Below, piece by piece: positions 14,859 to 40,575 of a DNA stretch of 44,918 bases (position 1 is its first letter; each line of letters starts with the position of its first letter). The DNA comes from Vectrevirus LI10P3. The notes under the pieces were generated by a model that saw nothing but the letters and a program-made list of their open reading frames with translations, did not search any database and was not told where the DNA came from. The stretch lies in the sequence record OZ035798.1; one strand, written 5' to 3'. The translations under genes were made by a program, and so were the position numbers.

Positions 14859-14874
14859 GTCTCACATGTGAGAC
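14859..14874 (+). repeat. Conserved palindrome GTCTCACATGTGAGAC, copy 1
   Basis: Perfect 16 bp palindrome abutting the promoter at 14877. Confidence 0.7.
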
Positions 14875-14876
14875 TT

Positions 14877-14899
14877 ATTTACCGGACACTATAGGATAG
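14877..14899 (+). promoter_or_regulatory. Phage RNAP promoter variant (ori-associated A)
   Basis: ATTTACCGGACACTATAGGATAG. Confidence 0.6.
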
Positions 14900-14947
14900 C
14901 CGTCGGAGACGGGAAAGAAAGGGGAAGATAAAGGATATAAAAAGGAA

Positions 14948-14994
14948 GTAATAGGTATTAAAGGCTATATAGGTTATCTAGGAATACCTATTAC
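14948..14994 (+). promoter_or_regulatory. Large hairpin
   Basis: GTAATAGGTATT ... AATACCTATTAC, perfect 12 bp stem with 23 nt loop. Confidence 0.45.
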
Positions 14995-15000
14995 CTTCTT

Positions 15001-15029
15001 CCTTCCTCTTATTACTACTTAGAGGAAGG
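15001..15029 (+). promoter_or_regulatory. Hairpin
   Basis: CCTTCCTCT-tattactactt-AGAGGAAGG, perfect 9 bp stem. Confidence 0.4.
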
Positions 15030-15042
15030 GCAGATCTAGGTT

Positions 15043-15058
15043 GTCTCACATGTGAGAC
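15043..15058 (+). repeat. Conserved palindrome GTCTCACATGTGAGAC, copy 2
   Basis: Perfect 16 bp palindrome a few nt upstream of the promoter at 15064. Confidence 0.7.
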
Positions 15059-15063
15059 TTCGT

Positions 15064-15086
15064 ATTTACCGGACAGTATAGATAAG
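15064..15086 (+). promoter_or_regulatory. Phage RNAP promoter variant (ori-associated B)
   Basis: ATTTACCGGACAGTATAGATAAG. Confidence 0.5.
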
Positions 15087-15111
15087 ACTAACTTACTTTG
15101 GAGATTTAACC

Positions 15112-15240
15112 ATGCGTAACTTTGAGAAGATGACCCGTAAAGCTAACCGTTTTGACATGGAAGAAGGGCAGAAGAAAGGCAAGAAGCTGAATAAACCTGT
15201 CCGTGACCGTGCATCTAAACGCGCTGCGTGGGAGTTCTAA
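15112..15240 (+). CDS. gp1.1-like small basic protein (42 aa)
   Basis: MRNFEKMTRKANR...KLNKPVRDRASKR matches recalled T7 gp1.1; GGAG RBS; below the 60 aa cut-off of the ORF track. Confidence 0.6.
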   Translation: MRNFEKMTRKANRFDMEEGQKKGKKLNKPVRDRASKRAAWEF

Positions 15241-15243
15241 GTT

Positions 15244-17232
15244 ATGGCTATTATTCAGAATGTACCGTGTCCTGCCTGTCAAAAGAATGGACATGATATT
15301 ACTGGCAACCATCTTATGATATTTGAGGATGGCGCTGGTTACTGTAACCGTGGTCACTTCCATGATAATGGGAAGCCTTATTACCATAAGCCAGAGGGTG
15401 GCATCGAGATAACCGAGTTACCTATTACTGGCAATATCAAATATACACCTTCTCAATTCAAAGAAATGGAGAAGGAAGGGAAGATAAGCGACCCTAAGCT
15501 ACGCGCCATCGCTCTTGGTGGTATGCGTATGAAAGACCGTTGGGAGGTCATGAATGAGCAAGAAAGGGCAGACCAAGAAGCAGAGTGGAAACTTGATGTT
15601 GAATGGTTCCTCACGCTTAAGCGTAAGAACCTTGTATCCCGTCACATTCGAGGTGACATCGCAGCAATGTACGATGTGCGCGTTGGACACGATGAAGAGG
15701 GAAGAGTCAACCGTCACTATTATCCACGATATGAAAAGGGTGTGCTTGTTGGGGCAAAATGCCGGACGTTGCCGAAGGATTTTAAGTTCGGACACCTAGG
15801 TAAACTCTTTGGTATGCAAGATCTTTTCGGTATGAACACTTTGTCTCACGTGTTAGACAAGGGAAGACGAAAGGATTGCTTGCTTATTGTAGGCGGTGAA
15901 CTTGATGCACTAGCAGCGCAGCAGATGCTCCTTGATTCTGCCAAGGGTACTAAGTGGGAAGGCCAGCCATACCATGTATGGTCTGTCAACAAAGGCGAGT
16001 CTTGTCTTGAAGAGATAGTGCAAAACCGTGAGCATATCGCCCAATTCAAGAAGATTATATGGGGTTTTGATGGAGATGAGGTAGGGCAGAAGCAGAATCA
16101 GCAAGCGGCTCGCCTGTTTCCTGGCAAATCCTATATCCTTGAATACCCCTCTGGTTGCAAAGATGCTAACAAGGCATTGATGGCTGGCAAGGCCAAAGAG
16201 TTTGTTGATGCATGGTTTAATGCCAAGTCATCTGATGAAGTCTTTGGTAGCCAGATTAAATCTATCGCCTCTCAAAGGGATAAGCTCAAGGCTGCACGTC
16301 CAGAGCAAGGACTATCATGGCCTTGGCCTAAGCTGAACAAGGTAACGCTAGGTATTCGTAAGAACCAACTTATCATTGTAGGCGCAGGCTCTGGTGTAGG
16401 TAAGACTGAGTTCCTTCGTGAAGTAGTTAAGCACCTCATTGAAGAACACGGTGAATCTGTAGGCATCATTTCTACAGAAGACCCGATGGTCAAGGTGTCC
16501 CGTGCTTTTATCGGCAAGTGGATTGATAAGCGTATTGAGTTACCGCCAACCAACGACCCTAAAGAAGACGGATACCGTGAGGTGTTCGACTACACCGAGG
16601 AAGAAGCTAACGCCGCCATTGATTATGTAGCTGATACAGGTAAGCTGTTTGTAGCTGACCTAGAGGGTGACTATTCGATGGAAAAGGTAGAGCAAACTTG
16701 CCTAGAGTTTGAGGCTATGGGTATTTCTAATATCATCATTGATAACTTAACGGGGATTAAATTAGATGAGCGTGCTTTTGGTGGGAAGGTTGGTGCACTT
16801 GATGAATGCGTCAAGCGGATTGGTACTATCAAAGACCGACACCCGGTTACTATATTCCTTGTATCACACCTTACACGTCCTCCGGCAAACCGTACCCAAC
16901 ACGAAGAAGGTGGCGAAGTTATCCTTTCTGACTTCCGAGGCTCAGGAGCTATCGGATTCTGGGCATCTTACGCCTTGGGGATTGAGCGTAACACAAGAGC
17001 TGAAACGCTTGATGAAAGAACTACCACGTACATCTCATGTGTCAAAGACCGCGACCAAGGTATCTGGACTGGAACCAAGGTCATGCTTAAGGGTGACATT
17101 CAAACCGGACGTTTAATGGAACCACAAGCCCGTACTAAGTCATTTGATACAGGTGAAGCAAGGCAACAAGAAGTACCAGATTTACCGGACACTATAGAAG
17201 AGACTAACTTCGATGAAGAAAGTGAGTTCTGA
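15244..17232 (+). CDS. DNA primase/helicase (gp4-like)
   Basis: N-terminal zinc-binding CPACQ...CNRGH; Walker A GAGSGVGKT; acidic C-terminus FDEESEF. Confidence 0.9.
   Translation: MAIIQNVPCPACQKNGHDITGNHLMIFEDGAGYCNRGHFHDNGKPYYHKPEGGIEITELPITGNIKYTPSQFKEMEKEGKISDPKLRAIALGGMRMKDRWEVMNEQERADQEAEWKLDVEWFLTLKRKNLVSRHIRGDIAAMYDVRVGHDEEGRVNRHYYPRYEKGVLVGAKCRTLPKDFKFGHLGKLFGMQDLFGMNTLSHVLDKGRRKDCLLIVGGELDALAAQQMLLDSAKGTKWEGQPYHVWSVNKGESCLEEIVQNREHIAQFKKIIWGFDGDEVGQKQNQQAARLFPGKSYILEYPSGCKDANKALMAGKAKEFVDAWFNAKSSDEVFGSQIKSIASQRDKLKAARPEQGLSWPWPKLNKVTLGIRKNQLIIVGAGSGVGKTEFLREVVKHLIEEHGESVGIISTEDPMVKVSRAFIGKWIDKRIELPPTNDPKEDGYREVFDYTEEEANAAIDYVADTGKLFVADLEGDYSMEKVEQTCLEFEAMGISNIIIDNLTGIKLDERAFGGKVGALDECVKRIGTIKDRHPVTIFLVSHLTRPPANRTQHEEGGEVILSDFRGSGAIGFWASYALGIERNTRAETLDERTTTYISCVKDRDQGIWTGTKVMLKGDIQTGRLMEPQARTKSFDTGEARQQEVPDLPDTIEETNFDEESEF
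17180..17202 (+). promoter_or_regulatory. Phage RNAP promoter inside the helicase 3' end
   Basis: ATTTACCGGACACTATAGAAGAG. Confidence 0.6.
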
Positions 17233-17248
17233 TTAGTGTATTTATCAG

Positions 17249-17275
17249 GGCTTGTCTCACATGTGAGACAGGCTC
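17249..17275 (+). repeat. Conserved palindrome, copy 3 (extended hairpin, terminator-like)
   Basis: GGCTTGTCTCACATGTGAGACAGGCTC then CTTATT; nearly identical to the copy at 40549. Confidence 0.65.
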
Positions 17276-17308
17276 TTATTAAGTACATTAAATAACTGGA
17301 GATTGATT

Positions 17309-17992: not shown

Positions 17993-18002
17993 GGAGTTAA
18001 TC

Positions 18003-18221: not shown

Positions 18222-18387
18222 ACATAGTCTTAAAATGTTCGATGGTCATGAAGACCTGCAAGCCAAGATTACTAACCAAGCCTTCCTGTTTGCACAGTTA
18301 ACTATGGCTGAAGCAAAGAAGAATAGCCTGACGCGTGAACAGGTTATCAAGGAAAGTGAAGTGAAACGTAAGATTCGCAGTCGATAA
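18211..18387 (+). CDS. Hypothetical small protein (58 aa)
   Basis: GGTGA RBS; short overlap with the previous gene; below ORF-track cut-off. Confidence 0.3.
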   Translation: MQNKHSLKMFDGHEDLQAKITNQAFLFAQLTMAEAKKNSLTREQVIKESEVKRKIRSR

Positions 18388-18393
18388 GTCAAG

Positions 18394-18417
18394 GGTTGTC
18401 TCACGTGTGAGACAGCC
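18394..18417 (+). repeat. Conserved palindrome, copy 4 (G at centre)
   Basis: GGTTGTCTCACGTGTGAGACAGCC then TTTCAT. Confidence 0.65.
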
Positions 18418-18444
18418 TTTCATCATATTGATTGGAGGTGCATT

Positions 18445-18757: not shown

Positions 18758-21290
18758 TTGGAAGAAGGAGGCAGAAGGTCGTATCCTCGTGATGGATGCG
18801 GAAGCTAAAGGACTCCTTGACGCTATCCGATATGGACACCGTGAAGATGTGCATATCATTTGCTGCATGGATTTGCTTACTACCGAGGAGTTTCTCTTCT
18901 TTGACCCGTATGAGATGCGTGACCCTGAAGCAAGAGAACGCCTGAAGGAATGGGAAGGTCATCAAGACGGAACCTTGGTTGATGGTGTTAACTTCCTGAA
19001 GCATTGTGAAGCTATTGTGTCACAGAACTTCCTAGGGTATGACGGACTTCTCTTTGAGAAAGCATTCCCTGATATTTGGAAAGGCTTTAACTATACCGAG
19101 AAGCGCGGTAAGGGCAGACTCCGTGCTGACCTGTGTCCGGTGCGAGTCATGGATACGCTGGTGATGAGTCGCCTGTTAAACCCCGATAGACGCCTTCCTC
19201 CGCAAGCATATGCCAAAGGTATGGGTAACGTCGCCCCTCACTCAATTGAGGCGCACGGCATCCGTATAGGCCGCTATAAACCGGAGAACGAGGACTGGTC
19301 TAAACTAACTGACCACATGGTTCACCGTGTACGTGAGGACGTGGCGATTGGTCGTGACTTGTTCCTCTGGCTCTTTAACGGGGAATGGATGGAGCACAAA
19401 CGCCGTGGCGTGAATAAACGCACTGGCCTAGGTATTGAGACAGCCTTCCACATGGAGTCCATTGTGGCGCTGGAGATGAGCCGTCAGGCAGAGCGTGGAT
19501 TCCGTCTGGATATTGACAAAGCACTAGCGCGATGCGAAGAACTGGACGCTAAGATTGACGAGACAGTCGCAGCGTTCCGCCCTCACATGCCTATGCGTAT
19601 CAAGTCTAAGCCTTTTAAACCGGAAGAAAAGAATGAAGTATGCCAACGCGCAAATGAGTATGGAGCTAGCAACAATATACCTACTGTCCTTGACCCCTCA
19701 CACTTTCTTCATGCCGAGAGACGAGGAGATCGCAAGACAGTATGGAGTGTCACTACTAAGTCTGGTGATTGGTCGGCTAGTGTCAAGAAAGACTTTCCTC
19801 ACCTTAGAGGAAACCGTAATGACACGCCAAGCATCAAGTGGATTGGCGCTTACTCGCCTGTTACTTTCGAAGAGATTCCCTTGGGTAACAGGGATACAGT
19901 TAAGCAAGTGCTCTATGAGTATGGATGGAAAGGTGTTGAATTTAACGATACCGAGCAAGCTCATCTCGATGAGCACGGAGTGTTACCAAAACCTTGGAGT
20001 GGTAAGATAAATGAAAAGTCCCTCACTTTATGGCAAGAAAGAGCCGCACGTGAAGGTAAAACAGTCCCTGATTGGTGCTTGGGTATCGCTGCATGGTACA
20101 TACTCGTATCCCGTCGTGGTCAGATACTCAACCGTGGTGACGTTGAAGCCTTCAACGAGAAGGGAACGTGGCCCTCGCAGGCTGGTGTACGAAAGTGTCG
20201 CGGCCTTGTACCTGTAGCATTCAACAAGGAGCTAGGAATCAATGCGCAGCAATACTACGAGAGGTACGGATGTTGGCCTACGTCTGACAAAGATGACGGA
20301 GAGTGGCGTGTTCCAGCTGTTGCTATTAGTATTGGCACTTCTACGTTCCGTATGCGTCATCGTAATGTGGTTAATATTCCTGCCCGTGGCTTGTATCCTT
20401 TACGTGATTTATTCATAGCAGGGAAAGGCAAGCTAATCCTTGGTTGTGACGGTGCAGGTCTTGAACTGCGTGTCCTGTCTCACTTCATGAATGACCCTGA
20501 GTACCAAGAGATTGTACTGCACGGTGATATTCATACGCATAACCAGATGAAGGCTGGTCTTCCTAAGCGTGATATGGCGAAGACGTTTATATACGCCTTC
20601 CTCTATGGTTCTGGTATAGCCAACCTTGCAGCAGTCTGCGGTGTTACTGAGGAAGAAATGAAGGAAGTTGTGGCAAGATTCGAGATTGAACTACCGTCTC
20701 TTGCACGTCTTCGTGAGAATGTTATCGCACAAGGTAACAAGTTTGGCTACCTGCAAGCACCTGATGGGCATTGGGGTCGCATCCGCATGTCTGGTGGTGA
20801 ACTTAAAGAGCACACGATGCTTAACGTATTACTCCAGATGACTGGCTCTTTGTGTATGAAATATGCACTAGTCAAGGCATTTGCAGTAATGCGCAAGGAA
20901 GGTGTAGCTTTGGATGCTATGGGAAATCCTTGTGGTGTGGCTAACGTGCATGATGAAATCCAGATGGAAGTTCCTGAAGAGGAGGTCTTGTATCTTAACT
21001 ACGACCTACCTTTCACCTTAGATGGGTTCGAAACAGAGAAGGCTGCTGTGAAAGCAGTTTTCGATGCAGAGGAGAAACGTGTTCATGTGGATTCTGAAGG
21101 ACGTATGTGGTCTGCTGCAAACCTCGTTAGCGTTGATGCTGATGCTGGTGTATTGCATTGCCAGCGCCGTTATCACCGTGCAGGTCATATCATTGCCGAC
21201 GCCATGACTTGGGCAGGGCAGTATCTGAAGATGCGTTGCCCGATGGCAGGAGAATATAAGATTGGCGCAAGCTGGAAGGAAACACACTGA
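18744..21290 (+). CDS. DNA polymerase, family A (gp5-like)
   Basis: ATG 18744 with GGAG RBS; motif B RDMAKTFIYAFLYGSG; motif C VANVHDEIQMEV; N-terminal exonuclease-like LVMDAEAKG. Confidence 0.9.
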   Translation: MKSIDWKKEAEGRILVMDAEAKGLLDAIRYGHREDVHIICCMDLLTTEEFLFFDPYEMRDPEARERLKEWEGHQDGTLVDGVNFLKHCEAIVSQNFLGYDGLLFEKAFPDIWKGFNYTEKRGKGRLRADLCPVRVMDTLVMSRLLNPDRRLPPQAYAKGMGNVAPHSIEAHGIRIGRYKPENEDWSKLTDHMVHRVREDVAIGRDLFLWLFNGEWMEHKRRGVNKRTGLGIETAFHMESIVALEMSRQAERGFRLDIDKALARCEELDAKIDETVAAFRPHMPMRIKSKPFKPEEKNEVCQRANEYGASNNIPTVLDPSHFLHAERRGDRKTVWSVTTKSGDWSASVKKDFPHLRGNRNDTPSIKWIGAYSPVTFEEIPLGNRDTVKQVLYEYGWKGVEFNDTEQAHLDEHGVLPKPWSGKINEKSLTLWQERAAREGKTVPDWCLGIAAWYILVSRRGQILNRGDVEAFNEKGTWPSQAGVRKCRGLVPVAFNKELGINAQQYYERYGCWPTSDKDDGEWRVPAVAISIGTSTFRMRHRNVVNIPARGLYPLRDLFIAGKGKLILGCDGAGLELRVLSHFMNDPEYQEIVLHGDIHTHNQMKAGLPKRDMAKTFIYAFLYGSGIANLAAVCGVTEEEMKEVVARFEIELPSLARLRENVIAQGNKFGYLQAPDGHWGRIRMSGGELKEHTMLNVLLQMTGSLCMKYALVKAFAVMRKEGVALDAMGNPCGVANVHDEIQMEVPEEEVLYLNYDLPFTLDGFETEKAAVKAVFDAEEKRVHVDSEGRMWSAANLVSVDADAGVLHCQRRYHRAGHIIADAMTWAGQYLKMRCPMAGEYKIGASWKETH

Positions 21291-21504: not shown

Positions 21505-21511
21505 GTTATAC

Positions 21512-21545
21512 TCAAGGTCACTTACGAGTGGCCTTTATGGATAAC
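21512..21545 (+). promoter_or_regulatory. T7-type RNase III processing site-like hairpin
   Basis: ACTCAAGGTCACTTACGAGTGGCCTTTATGG resembles the recalled T7 R-site pattern CTCAAGGTC...GAGTGGCCTTTATGAT. Confidence 0.45.
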
Positions 21546-21572
21546 TTATCCCTACTTATTTTGTCTAACATG

Positions 21573-22503: not shown

Positions 22504-23310
22504 ATGGCACGTGGTGATTTTGATTTTGGTGCTTCCGTATCTAAAGCTGAAGGTAAAGTCTTTAAGAACCCAGAAGTAGGTGATCATGAAGCAGTAATCT
22601 CTGGCATCATTCATGTTGGTTCCTTCCAAGACATCTTTAAGAAAGGTAATACCACTGAAGTTAAGAAGCCAGCAAACTTTGTTCTAGTTAAGATTGTCCT
22701 GATGGGCGACGATGACAAGAACGAAGATGATTCTCGCATGGAACAATGGATGGCTGTTCCTCTGAAGTCTGGTGATAAGGCAACACTGACTAAGTTCCTA
22801 AATGCAGTTGACCCTAAAGAGCTGCTTGGTGGTTTCGATGACTTCATCGGTGAATGCCTGACTGCAACTATGGTTGGCTCTGGCGACAAGAATGATGATG
22901 GTACTTTCAAGTATGTTAACTGGAAAGGCTTTGGCGGTATGCCTGATAAGTTGAAGAAGCTTGTACTGGCTCAGGTAGAAGAGGAAGGTCTGTCTATGAC
23001 AGGTCATATCACCTTCGACAAGCTGACCAAAGAAATCCTTGATGACATCCCAGCTAACTTGGTGCGTCAATACTTCCTTAATGAAACACCTCGTGGTAAG
23101 AACCTGTCTGTTGCTGGTTCTCACGTAGAAGCAATCATTAAAGCTGCTCGTGAAGAAGACCCAGAGTGGAAGAAAGCCAAGAAGAAAGATGACGAGGATG
23201 CTACTCCAGCTAATCGTAAATCTCTGGATACTGGTGAGTCTGTTCCACAGGAAGTACCTGAAGCAGAAGATACTCCTGCACCGGAGATGGATGAGGACGC
23301 GGAATATTAA
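22504..23310 (+). CDS. Single-stranded DNA-binding protein (gp2.5-like)
   Basis: 268 aa; acidic C-terminal tail ending in aromatic residue (...EMDEDAEY), as in T7 gp2.5; AGGAGA RBS. Confidence 0.65.
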   Translation: MARGDFDFGASVSKAEGKVFKNPEVGDHEAVISGIIHVGSFQDIFKKGNTTEVKKPANFVLVKIVLMGDDDKNEDDSRMEQWMAVPLKSGDKATLTKFLNAVDPKELLGGFDDFIGECLTATMVGSGDKNDDGTFKYVNWKGFGGMPDKLKKLVLAQVEEEGLSMTGHITFDKLTKEILDDIPANLVRQYFLNETPRGKNLSVAGSHVEAIIKAAREEDPEWKKAKKKDDEDATPANRKSLDTGESVPQEVPEAEDTPAPEMDEDAEY

Positions 23311-23538: not shown

Positions 23539-23539
23539 A

Positions 23540-23555
23540 GTCTCACGTGTGAGAC
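23540..23555 (+). repeat. Conserved palindrome GTCTCACGTGTGAGAC, copy 5
   Basis: Perfect palindrome 15 nt upstream of the promoter at 23571. Confidence 0.65.
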
Positions 23556-23570
23556 AAATCGGTGTCCGGT

Positions 23571-23642: not shown

Positions 23643-24023
23643 ATGTTCAAGATTGAAACTATCGTAAACCGTGTTGTTAAAGGTGCTGCTCTGGTATCCG
23701 TTGAGTCTTTCATTATCGTCGATGAAGCTGATCAACTGGTAGCTGGTACTAAGGCTTACGATACCCGTGAAGAAGCTCAGGCTAAGATTGACAGCATGGG
23801 TAACTTCGCTGCTGGTCTGGAGTTCGCTCGCGCTTGCTTCCCTGAGCAGGCTGACAAAGCTCAGATTGGTAAGGCTAATATCGTAGCTGAATATCTGGAT
23901 TGGATTGCTGCTGGTAAGCCGGTGAAAGAAGTTAAGTCTGCTGAAGAAGCTGAATCTCAGGCAGTAGAAGAAGAAGTAGCTGCACCGGTAGATGCTCCGG
24001 TAAGCGAAGAGGAAGAGTTTTAA
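23643..24023 (+). CDS. Hypothetical protein (126 aa) with acidic C-terminal tail ending in Phe
   Basis: AAGGAGAA RBS; ends ...PVSEEEEF; codon usage looks like a highly expressed gene. Confidence 0.65.
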   Translation: MFKIETIVNRVVKGAALVSVESFIIVDEADQLVAGTKAYDTREEAQAKIDSMGNFAAGLEFARACFPEQADKAQIGKANIVAEYLDWIAAGKPVKEVKSAEEAESQAVEEEVAAPVDAPVSEEEEF

Positions 24024-25334: not shown

Positions 25335-25729
25335 AATCATCGGAGGTAGCAGCTTATAAGAGGGAACTGCTAGAGAAGCAAGGATGGAAGTGCCCCCTAT
25401 GTGGCGGCAGCCTCAAGGCTGTTACTCCTATAAACCGTGTACTTGACCATGACCATGAGACAGGATTCTGCCGTGCTGTTGTATGCCGAGGCTGCAATGG
25501 TGCAGAAGGAAAGATTAAGGGTGTTATCTCTGGTTATGGTAAGGCTGGTAACAACCGTTACTTCCAGCTTCAATGGTTAGAGCGACTATATGAATACTGG
25601 AAGTTACATAGTACGCCTCAGACAGATAAGTTATATCACAAACATCAAACGGAGGCAGAGAAGCGCGAGGTTAAGAACCGTAAGGCACGCCTTGCTTATG
25701 CAAGAAAGAAGGAGGTTAAAGTTGGGTAA
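25319..25729 (+). CDS. Endonuclease VII-family junction-resolving nuclease
   Basis: CPLCGG...LDHDHETGFCRAVVCRGCNGAEG, typical Endonuclease_7 zinc-binding and catalytic motif. Confidence 0.75.
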   Translation: MVSKLKSSEVAAYKRELLEKQGWKCPLCGGSLKAVTPINRVLDHDHETGFCRAVVCRGCNGAEGKIKGVISGYGKAGNNRYFQLQWLERLYEYWKLHSTPQTDKLYHKHQTEAEKREVKNRKARLAYARKKEVKVG

Positions 25730-26729
25730 GCTTCGCAGCTTGTACAAAGACTCCGAGGTACTTGATGCAATCGAGCAAGCTACCGACGAGAAAGGTAATG
25801 TTAATTACAATGAGATGGCACGTGTATTATCGTGTCACCCTGTGGGTAAGAAGATTACCCGCCAGTTGGCTCGATACTGGCATGGTCAATTCAAGAAGAC
25901 CAAGAAGAATGGTGATTATTACCAGACCCTTCTGCAAGAAGATAAGCGTATCAAAGAAGAGCGTAAGCTCAGGACTCCTGACCGCTACGAGGATTTGGCT
26001 ATTGTACCATTGCCTGACTCGCCTCATCGAAGTGTATTGGTAATCCCTGATACTCATGCACCTTATGAGCATCCAGATACCTTAGAGTTCCTTGCAGCAG
26101 TCGCGGCACGTTACCGTCCAGACACAGTGGTACACCTAGGAGATGAGGCAGACAAACATGCCTTGTCATTCCACGATTCGGACCCAAATCTGGATAGTGC
26201 TGGCATGGAGTTAGAGAAGTCTCGTATCTTCATGCACAAATTGCACAAGATGTTCCCTGTGATGCGCCTGTGTCACTCCAACCACGGCTCTATGCACTTC
26301 CGTAAGGCAAGCGCCAAGGGCATCCCTGTGCAATACCTGCGCACCTACCGTGAAGTTTTCTTCCCGCAGGGAGGTGGCGACCAGTGGGATTGGCAACATA
26401 CGCACGTCCTTGAGTTGCCGAATGGTGAGCAAGTGGCATTCAAGCATCAACCTGCTGGCTCTGTCCTAGCGGATGCAGCGCATGAGCGTATGAACCTTGT
26501 GTGTGGTCACTTGCACGGTAAGATGTCTGTGGAGTACGCACGTAATACACATGAACAGTATTGGGCTGTGCAAGGTGGCTGCTTAATTGATGAGTCATCC
26601 CGTGCATTTGCCTATGGGCGTGAGTCTAAATACAAGCCAGCATTAGGTTGTGTGGTTATTCTGGAGGGTGTACCTCATATTGTCCCGATGCAAACCAATA
26701 GCGACAACCGTTGGATTGGCAAGATTTAG
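25722..26729 (+). CDS. Calcineurin-like metallophosphoesterase
   Basis: Motifs PDTHAPYEHPD, HLGDEADKHA, SNHGSMH, CGHLHG; proposed TTG start with GGAGG RBS, start uncertain. Confidence 0.65.
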   Translation: MGKLRSLYKDSEVLDAIEQATDEKGNVNYNEMARVLSCHPVGKKITRQLARYWHGQFKKTKKNGDYYQTLLQEDKRIKEERKLRTPDRYEDLAIVPLPDSPHRSVLVIPDTHAPYEHPDTLEFLAAVAARYRPDTVVHLGDEADKHALSFHDSDPNLDSAGMELEKSRIFMHKLHKMFPVMRLCHSNHGSMHFRKASAKGIPVQYLRTYREVFFPQGGGDQWDWQHTHVLELPNGEQVAFKHQPAGSVLADAAHERMNLVCGHLHGKMSVEYARNTHEQYWAVQGGCLIDESSRAFAYGRESKYKPALGCVVILEGVPHIVPMQTNSDNRWIGKI

Positions 26730-27508: not shown

Positions 27509-28452
27509 ACATCTTCCAATTCCTAGGTCTTCCAGAAGACCACCGCAATCATCCATTCATGCTGGTGAAGCATCGCGGTGAAGTTCCTGAGAAGAAACTT
27601 ACTTTTCCATGTTATGCACAGGTGAAACGAGATGGAATATTCAGTGCTGTTGTGGTGCGCAATGATGGTGCTGTTGCCATCTTTGGTCGTACTGGTAAGA
27701 AGCTCGCAAATGTTGAATCCTTGGAAAAGACATTTAGTGTATTTCCTGTCGGGTTGTATCTTGGTGAGTTGCAATCTATGGCTGTTGATGTTTATCTTGA
27801 AGCTCTGTCAGGAGTGGTAAACCCTAATCGTACAGAGCCACTTGACTTCATAGGCCAGCAGATTAAAGACAACCTGTATATCGACTTCTTCGATATGTTA
27901 ACTATTAAGGCATTCCATGATGGATTCACTGATGTTTCTTATCTCAAACGTTACGATGCTTTACATCGCCGCATCGGCGCTCATCTTAGCGGGTACAACG
28001 CTATCCTTCCTATTACTCCTTGCCATAATGAGCGAGAAGTTGAAGCGTTTGCGCAAGAGCAGATAGACGCAGGCCGAGAAGGTGCGGTATTTAAACTTGA
28101 CGTGGAGTACGAAAGTGGGCACAAGGGCTATCGTCAAACGAAGATCGTTCGTATGGTATCTTACGACCTAACCTGTATTGGGTGGGAGGAAGGAAAAGGT
28201 AAGTATAAAGGTAAAGTAGCTAATTTAATCTTTAAATGGAAAGGTGGTAAGTCCGTTAAGGCTATGCTGGGGCGTGGCTGGTCACATGAGGATGCAGCAC
28301 AGATGTATCACGATATTAAACACGGTGGCGAACTAAACGTCATTGGGAAAATCTTCGCTGTTAAGGCGTTACAGGAATCTAGTAAGGGAGTTCTGAGACT
28401 TCCCAAGGTTTCTGAACTTAGGTTTGATAAGGAAGTCCCTGATGTCTTCTAA
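27505..28452 (+). CDS. ATP-dependent DNA ligase
   Basis: Adenylation motif I KRDG (AQVKRDGIF); 315 aa; GGAGGTG RBS. Confidence 0.85.
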   Translation: MNIFQFLGLPEDHRNHPFMLVKHRGEVPEKKLTFPCYAQVKRDGIFSAVVVRNDGAVAIFGRTGKKLANVESLEKTFSVFPVGLYLGELQSMAVDVYLEALSGVVNPNRTEPLDFIGQQIKDNLYIDFFDMLTIKAFHDGFTDVSYLKRYDALHRRIGAHLSGYNAILPITPCHNEREVEAFAQEQIDAGREGAVFKLDVEYESGHKGYRQTKIVRMVSYDLTCIGWEEGKGKYKGKVANLIFKWKGGKSVKAMLGRGWSHEDAAQMYHDIKHGGELNVIGKIFAVKALQESSKGVLRLPKVSELRFDKEVPDVF

Positions 28453-28927
28453 TCCAAATTATCGAAAACCACCTCGTACACCGCCAAGACCACTTGCCTA
28501 CTGTCCTTTTACTGGAAAGCTTTTCCGTAAGTTCAAAGATGGCTGGAGAGAAACAGGACTTAGCAGAAAGAGTGATGGATATTTACAGTGTAAAGTCGAT
28601 GGTAAGACTGTAAGTGTTCATGTTTTAGCAATGAATATGATGGGTTATGACACTACCGGCTTTACAGTAGATCACATAAATCATATACGCTGGGATAATA
28701 GGTTTATTAATCTACGTCTATTATCTCATAAAGATAATTGTTTAAATAGAGAGGCGATACATATAAGTAAGCTGCCGAGTGGTAACTACAGAGCGCGATG
28801 TGGAAATGTTCATCTTGGCGTATTTGAGGATAAGTTACTTGCTCGTGGTGCTATCCTATGGTATCGCCATAGGAGATTTAATAATGTTAAATTCAATGAA
28901 GGCAACGCGTGCCGTAGAAGTAGCTGA
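28442..28927 (+). CDS. HNH endonuclease
   Basis: VDHINHIRWDNRFINLRLLSHKDN motif; overlaps the ligase stop. Confidence 0.75.
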   Translation: MSSNPNYRKPPRTPPRPLAYCPFTGKLFRKFKDGWRETGLSRKSDGYLQCKVDGKTVSVHVLAMNMMGYDTTGFTVDHINHIRWDNRFINLRLLSHKDNCLNREAIHISKLPSGNYRARCGNVHLGVFEDKLLARGAILWYRHRRFNNVKFNEGNACRRSS

Positions 28928-36842: not shown

Positions 36843-37588
36843 TGGCTATAGGTTCAGCCGTTATGGCTGGTATGTCTTCTATTGGTAGTATGTTTGCAGG
36901 TAGCGGTGCAGCCGCCGCTGCTGGTGGTACTGCCGCAGCCGCAGGAGGGACAGCCGCCGCAGGTGGCGGAGGTTTGCTTGGCTCCCTTGGTAGTTTCTTA
37001 GGAGGTTCTTCTGCTGGCTTCTCTAATGCAGGACTGCTTAGTGCAGGTATGCAAGGTCTTGGTCTTCTAGGCAATCTTTTTGGTGGAAGTGATGAAGCCA
37101 AAGCTATGAAGAAAGCTCAGGAGGAGCAATGGCGGCAGCAGTTAATTGCTACACAAGAAGCATATAAGACAGTGGCAGATGCAGAACGCTCTGCTGCTAA
37201 ACAGTATCATGCGGATGCAATAAGCAATCAGGCTTCACTGCTACAGCAAAGAGCGCAGGTTGCACTACTTGCAGGTGCAACTGGCACTGGTGGTAACTCT
37301 GTATCTTCTATGCTGAATGACTTAGCAGCAGAGGGCGGGAGGAACCAGAGTACAATTATTGATAACTATGAGAATCAGAAGATTAACTTCACCAATCAGC
37401 TTAAGTCTATCCAGCGAGGTGGACAGATGCAGATGCGTGAGTTTAAGAAGCCTTCTGCCGTGAGCACCTTGGTGCAAGGTATACCGAGTCTGGCATCTGC
37501 CTATGTAACAGGTAGTAAGTCCGGCATGGCTTTAGGTAAAGCTTTAACTGATTCTCGTACATATTCATCTGGAACAAGAGGTATTTAA
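36842..37588 (+). CDS. Internal virion protein (Gly/Ala-rich)
   Basis: GGAGGG RBS; poly-Ala/Gly low-complexity N-terminal half; translationally coupled on both sides. Confidence 0.7.
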   Translation: MAIGSAVMAGMSSIGSMFAGSGAAAAAGGTAAAAGGTAAAGGGGLLGSLGSFLGGSSAGFSNAGLLSAGMQGLGLLGNLFGGSDEAKAMKKAQEEQWRQQLIATQEAYKTVADAERSAAKQYHADAISNQASLLQQRAQVALLAGATGTGGNSVSSMLNDLAAEGGRNQSTIIDNYENQKINFTNQLKSIQRGGQMQMREFKKPSAVSTLVQGIPSLASAYVTGSKSGMALGKALTDSRTYSSGTRGI

Positions 37589-40536
37589 TGGCAATTGAGC
37601 GACAAGCAGTACAAGGTCTGCCACAAGTGCAGGCCACTTCTCCTAATGTCATGACCTTTGCACCTCAGCGAGTTGGAGGTGTGGAGGCTGGCGTAGCTTC
37701 TACCTCCGGTAGTCGATTTATCGAAGACCTTATTCGAGCAGCCAGTAGTGTAGCTGATGTAACCACTGGTATCCTTAATCAAAAGATTGAGGAAGATAAG
37801 GTTGTTCAAATGGAACGGGCATATAACGGATTAATGCCTTCTGAGGATGCAACTCGTGGTGGCGCTCGTGCTAACATGCTTGTCAAAGCTCAACTGCTAG
37901 CTAATGATGAAGCAGCACGAATGAAAGACATGGCTACTCGTTTCCAAGGAACGGATGACGAGTGGACACAACTTATGGTTGACTCTCGTAATGAGATGCA
38001 GAATAAGCTGTTCCAGCAATACCCTGAGTTGCAAGGTGACAAAGATACTATGCGTATGGTCACTAATGTCTTCCAAGAACAGCAGCCTCAGATTTGGGCT
38101 ACACGAACCCAGCATAAACTTGACCGTGAACAAGCAGACCGTGAGGATACCTTTGACGGTCGAGTGGCTTCTACTTGGGATTCTAATATTGACCCTGAAG
38201 CCTCTGGCTATGCTTTACAGGAACGAATCCGCGAAGGTCTTACTCAAGGATTACTACCTGAACAGATGCACAAGAAGTTAGTCCAGCGAGCAATTTCACT
38301 TGCACAAGGCGGTGATGTTAGCATGGCTGAAGCCCTGAAGTATGTGAAGGACGATAAGGGTGTTTCTGTTTATGCTAAGAATCCACAGCTTATCACAGCC
38401 ATCACTAGTGGTAATGCAGTTTGGGCTAGGAATAATGTAGCTGATGTAACTCGTATGTCTTTCGAAGTTAAAGAATCCTACCTTGCAGGTGATTTAACTG
38501 ATGAAGAATTGTTGGAACGAGCACAGCACATTAATAATCTGACAGGTAACTCTGTCTTCTCTAATCCAGAGCTAGAGGCACTGATGCGCCAACGGGCTAA
38601 GCAGAATGCAGAGCTAGGTGCAATGCAGGATATGCGACGTGAGCTTTACTCCGACCGCCTGACTGGCTTCCAAGGTAAGACTGATAAAGAGAAGAAGGCT
38701 TACATTGATGTTATCAAACAGGATAGCCAACTTTATGCAGACCAGCAAATCAAACAACGTGGCTTGGACCCTTACAGTCAAGAGGCTGAAGCTATTCGTG
38801 GTGCAGTGGAAGTGCAGCGCCTGCAATTCATGAACTCCAAAGGCTTAGTGGATGATACCTTTGAGTCTCGTATCAAAGCCATGGAATCTATGCTATCGCC
38901 TGAGCACTTTGCCAAGGGCGAACCACAGGAGTTGATGACTATTCGCCAGTTGTGGGAACAGTTGCCAGAAGAGAGCCGAGGTGTCTTTGGTGACACGGTG
39001 AATGGCTACATGGATAACTACAACACTGCACTACAAATGGGAGAGACACCTTTGCAGGCTGCAAGGTTTGCGCGTGAAGCACAGCAGAAATTCTCTCGTA
39101 CTGAGAAGGAAACCAAGAAGTTCAACTCAGCTATTGGAGATGCACTGGATGAGGTATCTGGTGCTGGCTGGTTTGATGGTAAAACCGAAGTGTCAGACTT
39201 AGGTAAAGCTATTGCGGAAGAAGAGTTACGAGCTAAGGCCAATATGTTGTGGTCTAGTGGTATGCGTAACATGGATTCTATCAAGAAGGCTTTAATTACT
39301 TGGGGCAATAAACGCTACACTCAAACAGAGGATGCAAAGACTTCCGGTGGCTATTTCATTAAAGGTGATTACACTTCTGCATCTGATATGCTTATGTCAG
39401 TTGGGAAAGGCGTAAACCCTACCGATGTACCTCTGGCGCTTGGTAGGTATGTAGAAACACAGATGCCAGAATTGAAGAAGGAGCTTCAAGAGTGGGAAAC
39501 TAAAGATGATATATACATTGATTACAATGAACAGAAAGGAACTTTTGTGATTCGTGCTGGTGCAGCAGGTCGCCCTCTTTCTGGAGTAATCCCTGTAACC
39601 TCTTTAGATACTACTTCACTACTAGATTCTGCCTATCAGAAGAAAGTAGAGGAACGAGATAAAGGCGAGTATGTCCACCCGTATCGTACAGATATTGGTG
39701 CACAAGAGCCTATGCCAGCTAAACCAACTGCCAAAGATATTGGTAAATTTGGACTAGCTAACTTCCTCATGTCTTCTGCTTTTGCTTCTGGTGAGAATCT
39801 GCCTTCTAACTTCGAGATTAACTATCGAGGTAATATGCAACAATTCTATGACAAGCTAGCTATGGATGAGAATAAAGATAAAGTTGGCTTTAATAAGGCA
39901 ACTGGAACCTTTACTCCATATAAAGACGCTCGCGGTGAGTCTATCGGTTACGGTCATTTCTTAACGGAAGAAGAGAAGCGAAACGGGTATATTAAGATTG
40001 GTGATGAACTAGTTCCCTATCGAGGGTCTATGTCTCAGCTTACAGAGAGCAAGGCTCGCGCTCTTATGGAGCAAGATGCTAAGAAGCATGTGCCTCCTAC
40101 TCGTGACTGGAAGATTCCGTTTGACCAGATGCATCCTGCACAGCAACGTGGCTTGATGGATTTAACCTACAATTTAGGTAAAGGTGGAATCCAGAACTCA
40201 CCGCGTGCTTTTGCTGCATTCAAAGCTGGTAAGCTTACGGAAGGCTTTATCGAAATGCTGGGCACTGCATCAAGTGAAGGTAAGCGTATTCCTGGCCTAC
40301 TGAAGCGACGCGCTGAGGCATACAATATGGCATCTGCTGGTGGTGTGCCTAAGATTACCGAAGTGGAGACTCGTGAAGATGGCTCCATGTGGGTTAGGTT
40401 TGGTGGACCTATGCCAGCAGGTTCTGTCTCGGCATGGACTCATAAACGTATTGGCGCGGATGGTTGGTATCAGGTTTATGAGGCTGCACCTACCAAGTTA
40501 GCTAAAGGTTCTAAGGTAGGTAAATTTAAGTTGTAG
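37588..40536 (+). CDS. Internal virion (ejection) protein with C-terminal lysozyme-like domain
   Basis: 982 aa; region ~aa 780-930 (YKDARGESIGYGHFLTEEEK...GLMDLTYNLGKGG...KRRAEAYNM) resembles a T4-lysozyme-type (GH24) fold. Confidence 0.75.
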   Translation: MAIERQAVQGLPQVQATSPNVMTFAPQRVGGVEAGVASTSGSRFIEDLIRAASSVADVTTGILNQKIEEDKVVQMERAYNGLMPSEDATRGGARANMLVKAQLLANDEAARMKDMATRFQGTDDEWTQLMVDSRNEMQNKLFQQYPELQGDKDTMRMVTNVFQEQQPQIWATRTQHKLDREQADREDTFDGRVASTWDSNIDPEASGYALQERIREGLTQGLLPEQMHKKLVQRAISLAQGGDVSMAEALKYVKDDKGVSVYAKNPQLITAITSGNAVWARNNVADVTRMSFEVKESYLAGDLTDEELLERAQHINNLTGNSVFSNPELEALMRQRAKQNAELGAMQDMRRELYSDRLTGFQGKTDKEKKAYIDVIKQDSQLYADQQIKQRGLDPYSQEAEAIRGAVEVQRLQFMNSKGLVDDTFESRIKAMESMLSPEHFAKGEPQELMTIRQLWEQLPEESRGVFGDTVNGYMDNYNTALQMGETPLQAARFAREAQQKFSRTEKETKKFNSAIGDALDEVSGAGWFDGKTEVSDLGKAIAEEELRAKANMLWSSGMRNMDSIKKALITWGNKRYTQTEDAKTSGGYFIKGDYTSASDMLMSVGKGVNPTDVPLALGRYVETQMPELKKELQEWETKDDIYIDYNEQKGTFVIRAGAAGRPLSGVIPVTSLDTTSLLDSAYQKKVEERDKGEYVHPYRTDIGAQEPMPAKPTAKDIGKFGLANFLMSSAFASGENLPSNFEINYRGNMQQFYDKLAMDENKDKVGFNKATGTFTPYKDARGESIGYGHFLTEEEKRNGYIKIGDELVPYRGSMSQLTESKARALMEQDAKKHVPPTRDWKIPFDQMHPAQQRGLMDLTYNLGKGGIQNSPRAFAAFKAGKLTEGFIEMLGTASSEGKRIPGLLKRRAEAYNMASAGGVPKITEVETREDGSMWVRFGGPMPAGSVSAWTHKRIGADGWYQVYEAAPTKLAKGSKVGKFKL

Positions 40537-40548
40537 TATCTAACTCAA

Positions 40549-40575
40549 GGCTTGTCTCACATGTGAGACAGGTCT
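40549..40575 (+). repeat. Conserved palindrome, copy 6 (extended hairpin, terminator-like)
   Basis: GGCTTGTCTCACATGTGAGACAGGTCT then TTATG. Confidence 0.65.

What the first reader, a model, noticed from the sequence alone, without database searches (positions are those of the whole stretch)
14859..40575. A near-identical 16-18 bp palindrome, TGTCTCAC(A/G)TGTGAGACA, at six intergenic sites
Perfect copies lie at 14859, 15043, 17253, 18397, 23540 and 40553, with degenerate copies at ~9318 and ~15842. Three abut phage promoters (14877, 15064, 23571); three follow long genes and are extended into ~12 bp hairpins with U-rich tails (17249-17275 and 40549-40575 are almost identical over 27 nt). Conservation is at the level of primary sequence, not just structure, which argues for a sequence-specific ligand (a dimeric DNA- or RNA-binding protein, or a nuclease site) rather than generic terminator hairpins.
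Basis: seen in the sequence. Interest (0 to 1): 0.75.

Follow-up and report, generated by a model that had tools for sequence, protein, structure and literature searches.

The report
Phage-wide operator-like palindrome, likely protein-bound
A 16-bp palindrome repeated eight times in this SP6/K1E-type phage genome is real, is conserved across two whole phage subfamilies, and is most likely the DNA docking site of a previously uncharacterised early phage protein with a ParB/KorB-like DNA-binding domain; three copies also cap RNase III-type RNA processing hairpins.

Summary
There are 8 sites of GTCTCAC-RY-GTGAGAC, against about 0.1 expected, and it is the only multi-copy palindrome in this Vectrevirus genome.

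Three copies (17253, 18397, 40553) are not plain terminators. They form the top of two-stem hairpins whose flanks match the T7 RNase III sites, with strong covariation.

RNA structure does not explain the motif:
- The 7-bp arms are frozen while the neighbouring stem pairs covary freely.
- A copy upstream of the early promoters keeps its half-sites but not its pairing.
- Copies inside the primase and RNA polymerase genes are held by nucleotide-level selection, which even changes amino acids.

The 7-2-7 (sometimes 7-3-7) repeat sits at syntenic positions in more than 15 genera of Molineuxvirinae, Colwellvirinae and Gajwadongvirus.

Its half-site co-varies with the putative recognition helix of one conserved early protein, K1E gp6 (window 11172-12095):
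- Lys with GTCTCAC
- Asn/His with GTCYAAC
- other helices with GTCTAGT or GTTCGAG

The predicted fold of its N-terminal domain resembles ParB/KorB/SopB DNA-binding domains. T7 has neither the protein nor the palindrome.

The best reading is operator or parS-like sites for a dimeric phage HTH protein. No binding or function has been shown; this is inference.

The parts
9319..9336 (.). Left-end copy AGTCTCAC-AT-GTTAGACA. It lies upstream of the early sigma-70-like promoter, whose -35 TTGACA is at 9370. The arms are mismatched (C.U) but both half-sites belong to the allowed set.
   Evidence: An orthologous copy lies between the terminal repeat and the early promoters in all 11 full genomes.
11172..12095 (+). 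Candidate ligand gene (K1E gene 6 / SP6 gene 7 family). It is an early gene just upstream of the RNA polymerase gene. The HTH is at residues 46-74 (F57-G-I-K-K-A-Q-C-Y-K66-L-M), followed by a coiled coil (about 206-247) and a J-domain-like C-terminus.
14858..14875 (.). Core-only copy. It lies 41 nt after the early terminator hairpin (14794-14817) and 2 nt before the first phage promoter (TATTTACCGGACACTATAG).
15042..15059 (.). Core-only copy, 5 nt before the second phage promoter upstream of gene 8.
15842..15859 (.). Intragenic copy in the primase/helicase gene, read as TTG TCT CAC GTG TTA GAC (L-S-H-V-L-D). The right arm carries T instead of G because TGA would be a stop codon.
   Evidence: Synonymous positions are fixed in 8 genomes, and His/Asn tracks the allele.
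17233..17291 (+). T7-type RNase III hairpin after the primase/helicase gene. It has a lower stem, an asymmetric internal loop and a 13-bp upper stem whose apex is the palindrome (17253-17270).
18374..18437 (+). T7-type RNase III hairpin after gene 11 and before the DNA polymerase region. Its apex is the palindrome (18397-18414).
21510..21538 (+). Reference element: a T7-type RNase III site without the palindrome (ACTCAAGGTCACTTACGAGTGGCCTTTAT). It shows that the RNase III flanks do not need the palindrome.
   Evidence: Conserved in K1E, SP6 and R4596.
23539..23556 (.). Core-only copy that starts directly after the stop codon of gene 17, 15 nt before the gene-18 phage promoter.
40531..40593 (+). 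T7-type RNase III hairpin between the gp35 and gp36 genes (analogues of T7 gp15/gp16). Its flanks AACTCAAGG ... GGTCTTTAT|GAT match the T7 R-site consensus. The cleavage predicted by analogy is after 40579. Its apex is the palindrome (40553-40570).

Best explanation
The palindrome is a 7-2-7 inverted repeat with half-site 5'-GTCYMAC. It most likely acts on double-stranded DNA as the binding site (an operator or parS-like site) of a dimer of the conserved early protein encoded at 11172-12095 (the K1E gp6 family).

That protein has:
- an N-terminal helix-turn-helix domain with a predicted ParB/KorB/SopB-like fold
- a coiled coil that could dimerise it
- a J-domain-like C-terminus

It is made early from host-RNA-polymerase transcripts. 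It would occupy about 8 sites: one upstream of the early promoters, three at the upstream edge of middle phage promoters, one inside the primase gene, and three at gene boundaries.

The genome is transcribed on one strand only, so every copy downstream of a promoter also becomes an RNA hairpin. At three gene boundaries the phage has built T7-type RNase III processing sites around it. The palindrome forms the apical stem there, and the processed upstream mRNA would end in this hairpin.

What is shown:
- the existence of the sites, their enrichment, synteny and conservation across subfamilies
- the RNA two-stem structure, with covariation, at three sites
- nucleotide-level selection inside genes
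- co-variation of helix and half-site

What is inferred:
- that gp6 binds the sites
- that it binds as a dimer
- what binding does. My guess is KorB-like modulation or insulation of neighbouring promoters, or organisation of the replication-gene region.
For: 1. Enrichment and uniqueness.

2. The same 7-2-7 element lies at syntenic sites in K1E, R4596, SP6, Klebsiella HY, PP1, phD2B, Kp7, PM116, phiEa100 and Nifs112. It is also found in Colwellvirinae (Vp670 9 copies, Njord 10, BUCT553 7, CPP1m 3), in Gajwadongvirus and in Vibrio BD1.

3. Primary sequence matters, not pairing:
- Core pairs are invariant while adjacent stem pairs covary.
- The left-end copies mix allowed half-sites with mismatched arms.
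- Primase and RNAP copies keep synonymous positions fixed. Asn to His follows the CTC allele even though it creates a C.U mismatch.
- In Vp670 the RNAP-internal copy is kept in another reading frame, giving VSRCET instead of VS[NH]VLD.

4. The centre is R-Y in 88 of 91 two-nt centres. That is symmetric, as expected for a dyad.

5. Ligand candidate:
- A scan of 24 ortholog alignments for columns that segregate with the allele gave few hits. gp6 and the acetyltransferase had the highest densities (about 1.2-1.3% of columns), and one gp6 column lies in an HTH.
- gp6 residue 66 is Lys in every genome with GT(C/T)TCAC: Vectrevirus, Eracentumvirus, L267, Vp670, Njord, BUCT553.
- It is Asn or His in every genome with GTCYAAC: SP6, HY, PP1, phD2B, Kp7, PM116, BD1.
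- The helix KKAWAYRLM goes with GTCTAGT, and GKSSVSEWC goes with GTTCGAG.
- The Vectrevirus Lys differs from the Asn of its nearest relatives by one nucleotide, AAG versus AAC.
- Residue 66 falls at position 17 of a canonical 20-residue HTH pattern (Gly at 9; hydrophobics at 4, 8, 10, 15, 18). That is a base-contacting position, equivalent to lambda Cro Lys32 (established knowledge, recalled from memory).

6. Fold:
- In the AF2 model of residues 1-125, the HTH region (residues about 30-75) has pLDDT about 79-87.
- BFVD gives weak hits to DUF3102 and to ParB/Sulfiredoxin.
- 5 of 10 distant homologues hit Pfam DUF3102 over the HTH region, below threshold.

7. The half-site TGTCTCAC matches the parS half-site TGTTTCAC at 7 of 8 positions (parS sequence from PMC8299390).

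8. T7 has neither a gp6 homologue nor a multi-copy palindrome.
Against: - No binding data exist, and no paper in the searchable library mentions the motif or the protein's function.
- The Lys/Asn switch corresponds to only about 3 independent evolutionary events.
- Edwardsiella phage WCT72P1 has the Gajwadong helix but the heptamer GTATAGT rather than GTCTAGT. The helix therefore does not explain position 3.
- The spacer is 3 nt in Acadevirus, Vp670 and the Uliginviruses. A rigid dimer would not tolerate that without co-adaptation.
- In transcribed intergenic copies the arms always pair, and the only non-Watson-Crick state is U.G on the sense strand (SP6). An RNA-level constraint is therefore also present.
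- The parS resemblance fails on spacing (2 extra central bp), and gp6 lacks a detectable ParB N-terminal CTPase domain.
Confidence: 0.55

Rival explanations
1. The element is purely RNA-level. All copies are sense-strand RNA hairpins that act as processing, stability or pause signals (RNase III or a 3'-exonuclease barrier). Their shared sequence is kept by gene conversion among copies, or by an RNA-binding factor that reads the stem.
For: - Three copies are embedded in covariation-supported RNase III-type structures.
- G.U pairs in the extensions exist only on the sense strand.
- SP6 copies carry U.G rather than C.A.
- The +1 nt centre in PM116, Vp670 and Njord is easily tolerated in a loop.
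- Many Colwellvirinae copies sit 1-3 nt before a Shine-Dalgarno sequence.
- The R4596 record annotates one copy as a terminator.
Against: - According to PMC1540722, no conserved sequence has been identified that acts as a positive recognition determinant for E. coli RNase III.
- The window's own palindrome-free site at 21510 works with a different stem.
- Five copies lack the lower stem and the flanks.
- The left-end copy is upstream of the early promoters and has unpaired arms.
- The intragenic Asn to His change breaks an A-U pair to match the left arm.
- Core pairs never covary while their neighbours do.
- 16 bp of homology is a poor substrate for conversion across three different flank classes.
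- The protein helix co-varies with the half-site.
Confidence: 0.2
2. The site is a DNA site for a different activity. Candidates are a site-specific nuclease or nickase (HNH or endonuclease VII acting on an extruded cruciform), a recombination hotspot that marks module boundaries, or a replication-origin or priming element that uses the terminal 5'-TGTC (the T7-type primase recognises GTC).
For: - The copies cluster around the RNAP, primase and DNAP genes and next to phage promoters, as the T7 primary origin does (T7 knowledge from memory).
- In Eracentumvirus a promoter's recognition half is flanked by two copies, as if recombined.
- HNH genes often lie next to copies.
- The invariant outer GTC/GAC fits a gp4-type primase triplet.
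Against: - Positions are syntenic rather than polymorphic in 11 genomes.
- HNH genes are sporadic while the motif is universal.
- Arms of 7 bp are too short for stable cruciform extrusion (general knowledge).
- Primase triplets need no 16-bp context.
- None of these ideas explains the co-variation with the gp6 helix.
Confidence: 0.15
3. The site binds a conserved host protein, for example a nucleoid or division-site factor. The phage carries decoy or recruitment sites for it.
For: - GTCTCAC is identical in phages of E. coli, Erwinia, Vibrio and Pseudomonas.
- It resembles parS, and loosely resembles SlmA and MatP sites (from memory).
Against: - The allele does not follow the host. E. coli K1 phages use CTC while Salmonella and Klebsiella phages use CAA.
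- Enterobacterial chromosomes lack ParB/parS (established knowledge).
- The spacing differs from parS.
- Marinomonas and Gajwadong phages use unrelated half-sites that change together with the phage protein.
Confidence: 0.05

Closest known systems
KorB-OB and ParB-parS / SopB-sopC / VirB-box systems (ParB-family HTH dimers on dispersed palindromic sites of plasmids and chromosomes)
   Same: - A 13-18 bp inverted repeat is present in several to about 12 copies spread over one replicon, often next to promoters.
- The cognate protein is encoded on the same replicon.
- The predicted fold of the gp6 HTH domain matches these DNA-binding domains.
- The half-site TGTCTCAC matches the parS half-site TGTTTCAC at 7 of 8 positions.
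   Different: - The host is a virulent T7-supergroup podovirus with no need for partition.
- No ParB N-terminal CTPase domain and no ParA partner was detected.
- The half-sites are 2 bp (or 3 bp) further apart than in parS.
- gp6 carries a coiled coil and a J-like domain instead.
- Several sites are overprinted on coding sequence or on RNase III hairpins.
Bacteriophage T7 RNase III processing sites (R0.3, R0.5, R1.1, R4.7, R18.5)
   Same: The three long hairpins share the flanks ACUCAAGG ... CCUUUAU|GAU. They share the two-stem architecture with an internal loop and the position at gene boundaries. The expected outcome is a single cut that leaves a protective 3' hairpin (PMC1540722).
   Different: - The upper stem is replaced by the 16-bp palindrome, and is 13 bp rather than about 9 bp.
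- Five of the eight palindromes have none of the RNase III features.
- Cleavage has not been tested.
NarL/GerE-type '7-2-7' heptamer sites
   Same: The geometry is the same: two inverted heptamers separated by 2 bp, read by an HTH dimer (from memory).
   Different: The sequences are unrelated and the gp6 domain is not a GerE fold. A GerE HTH does occur on the Eracentumvirus metallophosphoesterase, but that protein is not conserved across motif-bearing phages.
PeSL cassettes of T4-type phages and bacterial REP elements (repeated hairpins beside promoters or after genes)
   Same: These are repeated intergenic hairpins, some directly next to promoters, with conserved primary sequence.
   Different: The positions are fixed and syntenic across genera rather than mobile or polymorphic. 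Copies also occur inside genes. No associated transposase (RAYT) is present.

Membership tests
T7-type RNase III processing site (copies at 17253, 18397, 40553) | Conserved flanks ACUCAAGG (5') and CCUUUAU|GAU (3') around the hairpin | tested here: met
   40553 matches exactly. 18397 and 17253 are variants (AAGUCAAGG...GCCUUUCAU; UAUCAGGG...GCUCUUAUU).
T7-type RNase III processing site (copies at 17253, 18397, 40553) | Upper and lower stems separated by an asymmetric internal loop, supported by covariation | tested here: met
   24 pairs, 13 of them with compensatory changes in 23 sequences from 9 genomes.
T7-type RNase III processing site (copies at 17253, 18397, 40553) | Cleavage by host RNase III at the predicted bond | not testable with these tools
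   Needs 5'/3'-end mapping in wild-type versus rnc hosts, or in-vitro cleavage.
T7-type RNase III processing site (the other five copies) | Flanking consensus and lower stem | tested here: not met
   only a 6-7 bp hairpin forms at 9319, 14858, 15042, 15842 and 23539; the flanks are unrelated.
Intrinsic (hairpin plus U-run) terminator | G+C-rich stem immediately followed by a run of U | tested here: not met
   - The tails are CUCUUAUUAAG, CCUUUCAUCAU and GUCUUUAUGAU, with at most 3 consecutive U.
- The pattern scan flags 14859 and 15043 only because the promoter's A+T-rich upstream part follows.
- The true early terminator is the separate hairpin at 14794-14817.
ParB/KorB-type operator (parS-like site) | Dyad-symmetric site in multiple dispersed copies on the replicon | tested here: met
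ParB/KorB-type operator (parS-like site) | Cognate ParB-family HTH protein encoded by the same genome | tested here: inconclusive
ParB/KorB-type operator (parS-like site) | Recognition helix and half-site change together across lineages | tested here: met
   There are 4 helix types and 4 half-site types. One partial exception is Edwardsiella (position 3).
ParB/KorB-type operator (parS-like site) | Same sequence and spacing as canonical parS (TGTTNCAC|GTGAAACA) | tested here: not met
   The half-site matches at 7 of 8 positions, but 2 extra central bp are present.
ParB/KorB-type operator (parS-like site) | ParB N-terminal (ParB/Srx, CTP-binding) domain in the protein | tested here: not met
   No ParBc or Srx hit in Pfam for gp6 or its 9 orthologues.
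ParB/KorB-type operator (parS-like site) | Direct, sequence-specific binding of the protein to the site | not testable with these tools
   Needs EMSA, DAP-seq or ChIP-seq.
Mobile repeated hairpins (REP / PeSL-like) | Insertion polymorphism between related genomes | tested here: not met
   The same syntenic positions are occupied in 11 full genomes of 8 genera.
Any curated RNA family (Rfam 15) | Match at gathering threshold | tested here: not met
   0 matches in the whole window.

The most novel reading that the evidence does not exclude
SP6/K1E-like and Colwellvirinae podoviruses, all strictly virulent, may carry a KorB/ParB-like DNA-binding network. In this reading a conserved early HTH-coiled-coil-J-like protein binds about 8-10 palindromic sites. 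These sites are overprinted on promoter edges, on RNase III hairpins and even on the coding sequences of the RNA polymerase and primase genes. The protein would act as a global organiser of phage transcription and/or replication, for example promoter insulation, early or middle shut-off, or recruitment of DnaK or the replisome to the replication-gene cluster. In these phages, which lack a T7-lysozyme-type regulator, it would fill that role.
Probability: 0.45. Interest if true: 0.85.

Novelty: new variant of a known kind. Interest (0 to 1): 0.72.

Why it matters
- SP6 and K1E-type phages supply widely used RNA polymerases and are phage-therapy candidates. Yet about half their genes have no known function, and nothing is known about how they time middle and late expression without T7 lysozyme.
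- A genome-wide operator set with an identifiable candidate regulator would give the conserved gene-6 family its first function.
- It would reveal a regulatory layer shared by at least two subfamilies of Autographiviridae.
- It would extend the ParB/KorB DNA-binding fold to virulent phages.
- It is a clean example of one short sequence under triple constraint: a protein site on DNA, an RNA processing hairpin, and a protein-coding sequence.
- Practically, the sites and the protein could serve as orthogonal parts alongside SP6- and K1E-polymerase expression systems. The motif also explains why annotation pipelines call 'terminators' here.

Tried and rejected
- **Rfam scan of the window:** nothing found.
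- **Literature:** searches for the motif strings, for SP6/K1-5 stem-loops, palindromes or RNase III sites, for ParB-like proteins in lytic podoviruses and for DUF3102 found nothing relevant. The two original genome papers (Dobbins 2004, Scholl 2004) are not held, so I cannot exclude that they mention the repeat.
- **PHROG and Pfam annotation of 19 ORFs of unknown or poorly defined function:** no annotated DNA-binding protein.
- **gp22 metallophosphoesterase as ligand:** the Eracentumvirus analogue has a GerE HTH. The N-terminus is not conserved (PP1 has an endonuclease VII fusion) and the Eracentumvirus protein is not a clear orthologue. Rejected.
- **gp17 (72 aa, one segregating column, gene abuts copy 23539):** only 2 homologues were retrievable, and the adjacent copy is missing in Eracentumvirus and Kp7. 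Not pursued.
- **Exact-pattern scans of IMG/VR:** singletons are chance. Multi-copy contigs are SP6-like. The 3-nt-centre form with the GTCCAAC half-site is multi-copy only in a Proteus-phage-like contig.
- **Metagenome scan for gp6 relatives:** added no new lineage with enough flanking DNA.
- **Full-length gp6 model:** too poor for fold search. The afdb50 library was unavailable.
- **boxA-plus-hairpin (nut-like) idea:** the boxA-like GCTCTTTAACAA motifs lie in the early region and are not next to the palindromes. Rejected as an explanation.
- **Host-factor look-alikes (LexA, CRP, SlmA, MatP, PurR family):** compared from memory. None fits in both half-site order and spacing.

Full report
**What the window is.** The 44.9-kb window is a complete, circularly permuted genome of a Vectrevirus. 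This is a K1E/K1-5-like member of the SP6 group (Autographiviridae, Molineuxvirinae). It is 93-98% identical to many E. coli K1 phages. All genes are on the + strand. I took gene names from the K1E record.

**The observation.**
- The 18-mer TGTCTCACRTGTGAGACA with up to 3 mismatches occurs at 8 places, against 0.10 expected.
- The 16-bp core GTCTCAC-RY-GTGAGAC is perfect at 14859, 15043, 17254, 18398, 23540 and 40554.
- It is near-perfect at 9320, and at 15843, which lies inside the primase/helicase gene.
- It is the only multi-copy palindrome in the genome. After the phage promoter it is the second most repeated sequence.
- Three copies sit 2-15 nt upstream of phage promoters.

**Three copies are RNase III-type hairpins, not terminators.**
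- T7's RNase III sites read ACTCAAGG-hairpin-GCCTTTAT|GAT. I took the sequences from the T7 genome at the classical R-site coordinates, which I recalled from Dunn and Studier 1983.
- The copy at 40553 has exactly these flanks: AACTCAAGG...GGTCTTTATGAT. The copies at 18397 and 17253 have close variants.
- Each folds into a lower stem, a small asymmetric internal loop and a 13-bp upper stem tipped by the palindrome.
- An alignment of these three sites from nine genomes gives a consensus two-stem structure. 13 of its 24 pairs show compensatory changes, and its G.U pairs exist only on the sense strand.
- The window also has a palindrome-free site of the same kind at 21510-21538, with a T7-like upper stem.
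- According to PMC1540722, internal loops restrict RNase III to a single cut that leaves a protective 3' hairpin. The same paper reports that no conserved sequence has been identified that acts as a positive recognition determinant for the E. coli enzyme.
- RNase III therefore explains the flanks but not the 16 conserved nucleotides. The other five copies form only a 6-7-bp hairpin and lack these flanks.

**The motif is ancient and positionally fixed.** It occurs in K1E, R4596, SP6, Klebsiella HY, Pectobacterium PP1, Lelliottia phD2B, Klebsiella Kp7, Proteus PM116, Erwinia phiEa100 and Pantoea Nifs112. In these genomes the same element occupies the same places:
- between the terminal repeat and the early promoters
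- next to the first phage promoter(s) after the RNA polymerase gene
- inside the primase gene
- after the primase gene
- before the DNA polymerase gene
- before the gene-18 promoter
- between the gp35 and gp36 genes

Some lineages have extra copies inside the RNAP, ligase or kinase genes.

The consensus is GTC[C/T][C/A]AC-RY-GT[G/T][A/G]GAC. The centre is R-Y in 88 of 91 two-nt centres. Two alleles exist. CTC/GAG is found in Vectrevirus and Eracentumvirus. CAA/TTG is found in the rest, with SP6 mostly TAA/TTG. All copies in a genome share the allele. In the Proteus phage lineage five copies have a 3-nt centre.

**Sequence, not pairing, is selected.**
1. In the RNase III hairpins, pairs just outside the palindrome change freely, while the palindrome's own pairs are invariant apart from the lineage-wide allele switch.
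2. The left-end copy lies 34 nt upstream of the -35 of the first sigma-70-type promoter. Its two arms are drawn from the allowed half-sites (GTCTCAC, GTCTAAC, GTCCAAC) but often do not pair.
3. In the primase gene the copy is read xxG TCY MAC GTG TTR GAC. All synonymous positions that belong to the motif are fixed in eight genomes, while neighbouring codons vary. The residue is His in CTC-allele genomes and Asn in CAA-allele genomes. Because TGA would be a stop codon, the right arm cannot follow, so the His change creates a C.U mismatch.
4. The same Asn-to-His switch occurs independently at the RNAP-internal copy of Eracentumvirus. Where the peptide SNVLD is present without motif codons, as in the window's own RNAP, other codons are used.
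5. In Vibrio phage Vp670 the RNAP-internal copy is kept at the orthologous place but in another frame. The peptide changes to VSRCET.

**A candidate ligand.**
- I aligned the 24 protein families that have an orthologue in all 11 genomes. I then looked for columns that separate CTC-allele genomes from CAA-allele genomes against the phylogeny.
- Only 22 columns of about 9,000 do so. The early protein gp6 and the acetyltransferase had the highest densities, about 1.2-1.3% of columns.
- One of the gp6 columns lies in the motif F-G-I-K-K-A-Q-C-Y-[K/N/H]-L-M.
- This motif fits the canonical helix-turn-helix pattern. The variable residue falls at position 17, a base-contacting position (lambda Cro Lys32; from memory).
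- Lys goes with C:G at half-site position 5, and Asn or His goes with A:T. Vectrevirus Lys (AAG) differs by one nucleotide from the Asn (AAC) of its closest relatives.
- The rule holds in all 60 loci examined.

More distant phages that carry a gp6 homologue provide further tests:

| Phage | Site | Copies found | Helix |
|---|---|---|---|
| Vp670 | GTCTCAC-NNN-GTGAGAC | 9 | Lys |
| Njord | GTCTCAC-NNN-GTGAGAC | 10 | Lys |
| BUCT553 | GTCTCAC-NNN-GTGAGAC | 7 | Lys |
| contig L267 | GTTTCAC-AT-GTGAAAC | 3 (one with a 3-nt centre) | Lys |
| Vibrio BD1 | GTCTAAC-RY-GTTAGAC | 7 | Asn |
| Gajwadongvirus | GTCTAGT-RY-ACTAGAC | about 4 | KKAWAYRLM |
| Marinomonas CPP1m | GTTCGAG-AT-CTCGAAC | 3 | GKSSVSEWC |

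T7 has neither the protein nor a repeated palindrome.

One partial exception exists. An Edwardsiella phage has the Gajwadong helix but A instead of C at half-site position 3.

**What the protein looks like.**
- AlphaFold2 gives a helical N-terminal domain. The HTH region (residues about 30-75) has pLDDT about 79-87, with helices 46-57 and 61-74 forming the HTH. A confident long coiled coil spans 206-247, and a small helical C-terminal domain follows.
- Weak BFVD hits point to DUF3102 and to ParB/Sulfiredoxin.
- The family has 163 clusters at 50% identity. Distant members hit Pfam DUF3102 over the HTH and DnaJ over the C-terminus, all below the curated thresholds.
- The half-site TGTCTCAC matches the parS half-site TGTTTCAC at 7 of 8 positions, but the two halves are 2 bp further apart.
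- I therefore say the system works like a ParB/KorB-operator system. I do not file gp6 as a ParB, because no CTPase domain is detectable and the fold evidence is moderate.

**Mechanism proposed.**
- gp6 is transcribed by host RNA polymerase before the phage polymerase gene. It dimerises through its coiled coil and binds the 7-2-7 sites on duplex DNA.
- The sites lie at one early-promoter upstream region, at the upstream edge of three middle promoters, within the primase gene and at three gene boundaries.
- This placement suggests a KorB-like role in setting or insulating transcription units, or in organising the replication-gene cluster. It sits where T7 has its promoter-based primary origin. 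This functional step is inference.
- Every transcribed copy folds in the mRNA, so the phage has incorporated three of them as the apical stem of RNase III hairpins. This explains why arms in transcribed copies always pair, with U.G only on the sense strand.

**Rivals.**
- A purely RNA role with gene conversion (0.2) is contradicted by the left-end and intragenic copies and by the frozen stem.
- Another DNA activity, such as a nuclease, a recombination site or an origin/priming element (0.15), is not excluded. It does not explain the protein co-variation.
- A host factor (0.05) does not fit the distribution of alleles across hosts.

**Limits.**
- There are no experimental data.
- The number of independent helix/half-site switches is small, about 3 for Lys/Asn plus two radical changes.
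- The structural model is of medium confidence.
- The two original SP6/K1-5 genome papers could not be read, so prior description of the repeat cannot be ruled out.

Noticed in passing
window 9471-9482, 10016-10027, 10228-10239: There are three copies of GCTCTTTAACAA, identical to the rrn-type boxA antitermination sequence. All lie in the early region transcribed by host RNA polymerase, and each follows a hairpin that starts CAAGG or TAAGG. The same motif is in the early regions of K1E, SP6, R4596, Klebsiella HY, PM116, phD2B, Nifs112 and Kp7. A fourth copy at 19370 inside the DNA polymerase gene is probably chance.
   Followed up: partly
window 21510-21538: A T7-type RNase III site without the palindrome (ACTCAAGGTCACTTACGAGTGGCCTTTAT). 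It is almost identical to T7 R0.5/R1.1 and is conserved in K1E, SP6 and R4596.
   Followed up: partly
window 28424-28927: A free-standing HNH endonuclease ORF (PHROG 99, Pfam HNH_3) lies directly after the ligase gene. No HNH gene is annotated at the corresponding position in K1E.
   Followed up: no
window 22504-23310 and 23643-24023: gp16 and gp18 both end in acidic tails with a terminal aromatic residue (...MDEDAEY...SEEEEF). This is the hallmark of T7 gp2.5-type proteins that dock on the DNA polymerase. gp16 is probably the SSB.
   Followed up: no
window 11900-12095 (gp6 C-terminus): The most conserved part of gp6 (PMLPQFKSSCFYARLGLSAEEA...KLGYGEGHEAW) resembles a J-domain but lacks the HPD motif. 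Distant homologues hit Pfam DnaJ below threshold.
   Followed up: partly
L007 7068-7118 and L129 6736-6786 (Eracentumvirus): Directly after the RNAP gene, the recognition half of a phage promoter (ATTAACCACCCAGGAA) is flanked by two palindrome copies. Its initiation half is missing. This is either a polymerase-binding site without a start or a recombination scar.
   Followed up: no
L130 (Klebsiella phage Kp7), whole genome: About 10 copies of CTGTGGATAA, the complement of a DnaA-box-like TTATCCACAG, appear among the most repeated 10-mers.
   Followed up: no
L292 162, 7940, 8018, 16306; L293, L294 (Gajwadongvirus): A second palindrome family, GTACTAG-N4-CTAGTAC, sits next to the GTCTAGT-RY-ACTAGAC family. 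One copy of the latter lies inside the gp6-like gene itself, at PP99 3875 and ECBP5 1372.
   Followed up: no
L080 2433-2512 and L107 8702-8830 (unrelated viral contigs): Two to three tandem copies of GTCTCAC-NN-GTGAGAC, with non-RY centres, lie in a TATA-rich intergenic region. The region is near a winged-helix-like ORF in a different phage type. It looks like an ordinary repressor operator array.
   Followed up: partly
window 25722-26729 and L129 19011-20135: The metallophosphoesterase gp22 has an unannotated HTH-like N-terminus. Its Eracentumvirus analogue carries a clear GerE/LuxR HTH, and in PP1 the N-terminus is an endonuclease VII domain.
   Followed up: partly
window about 15100-15244 and about 17232-17253: The window lacks K1E genes 8.5 and 9.5. 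This follows from shifts in the coordinate offset between orthologous motif copies.
   Followed up: no
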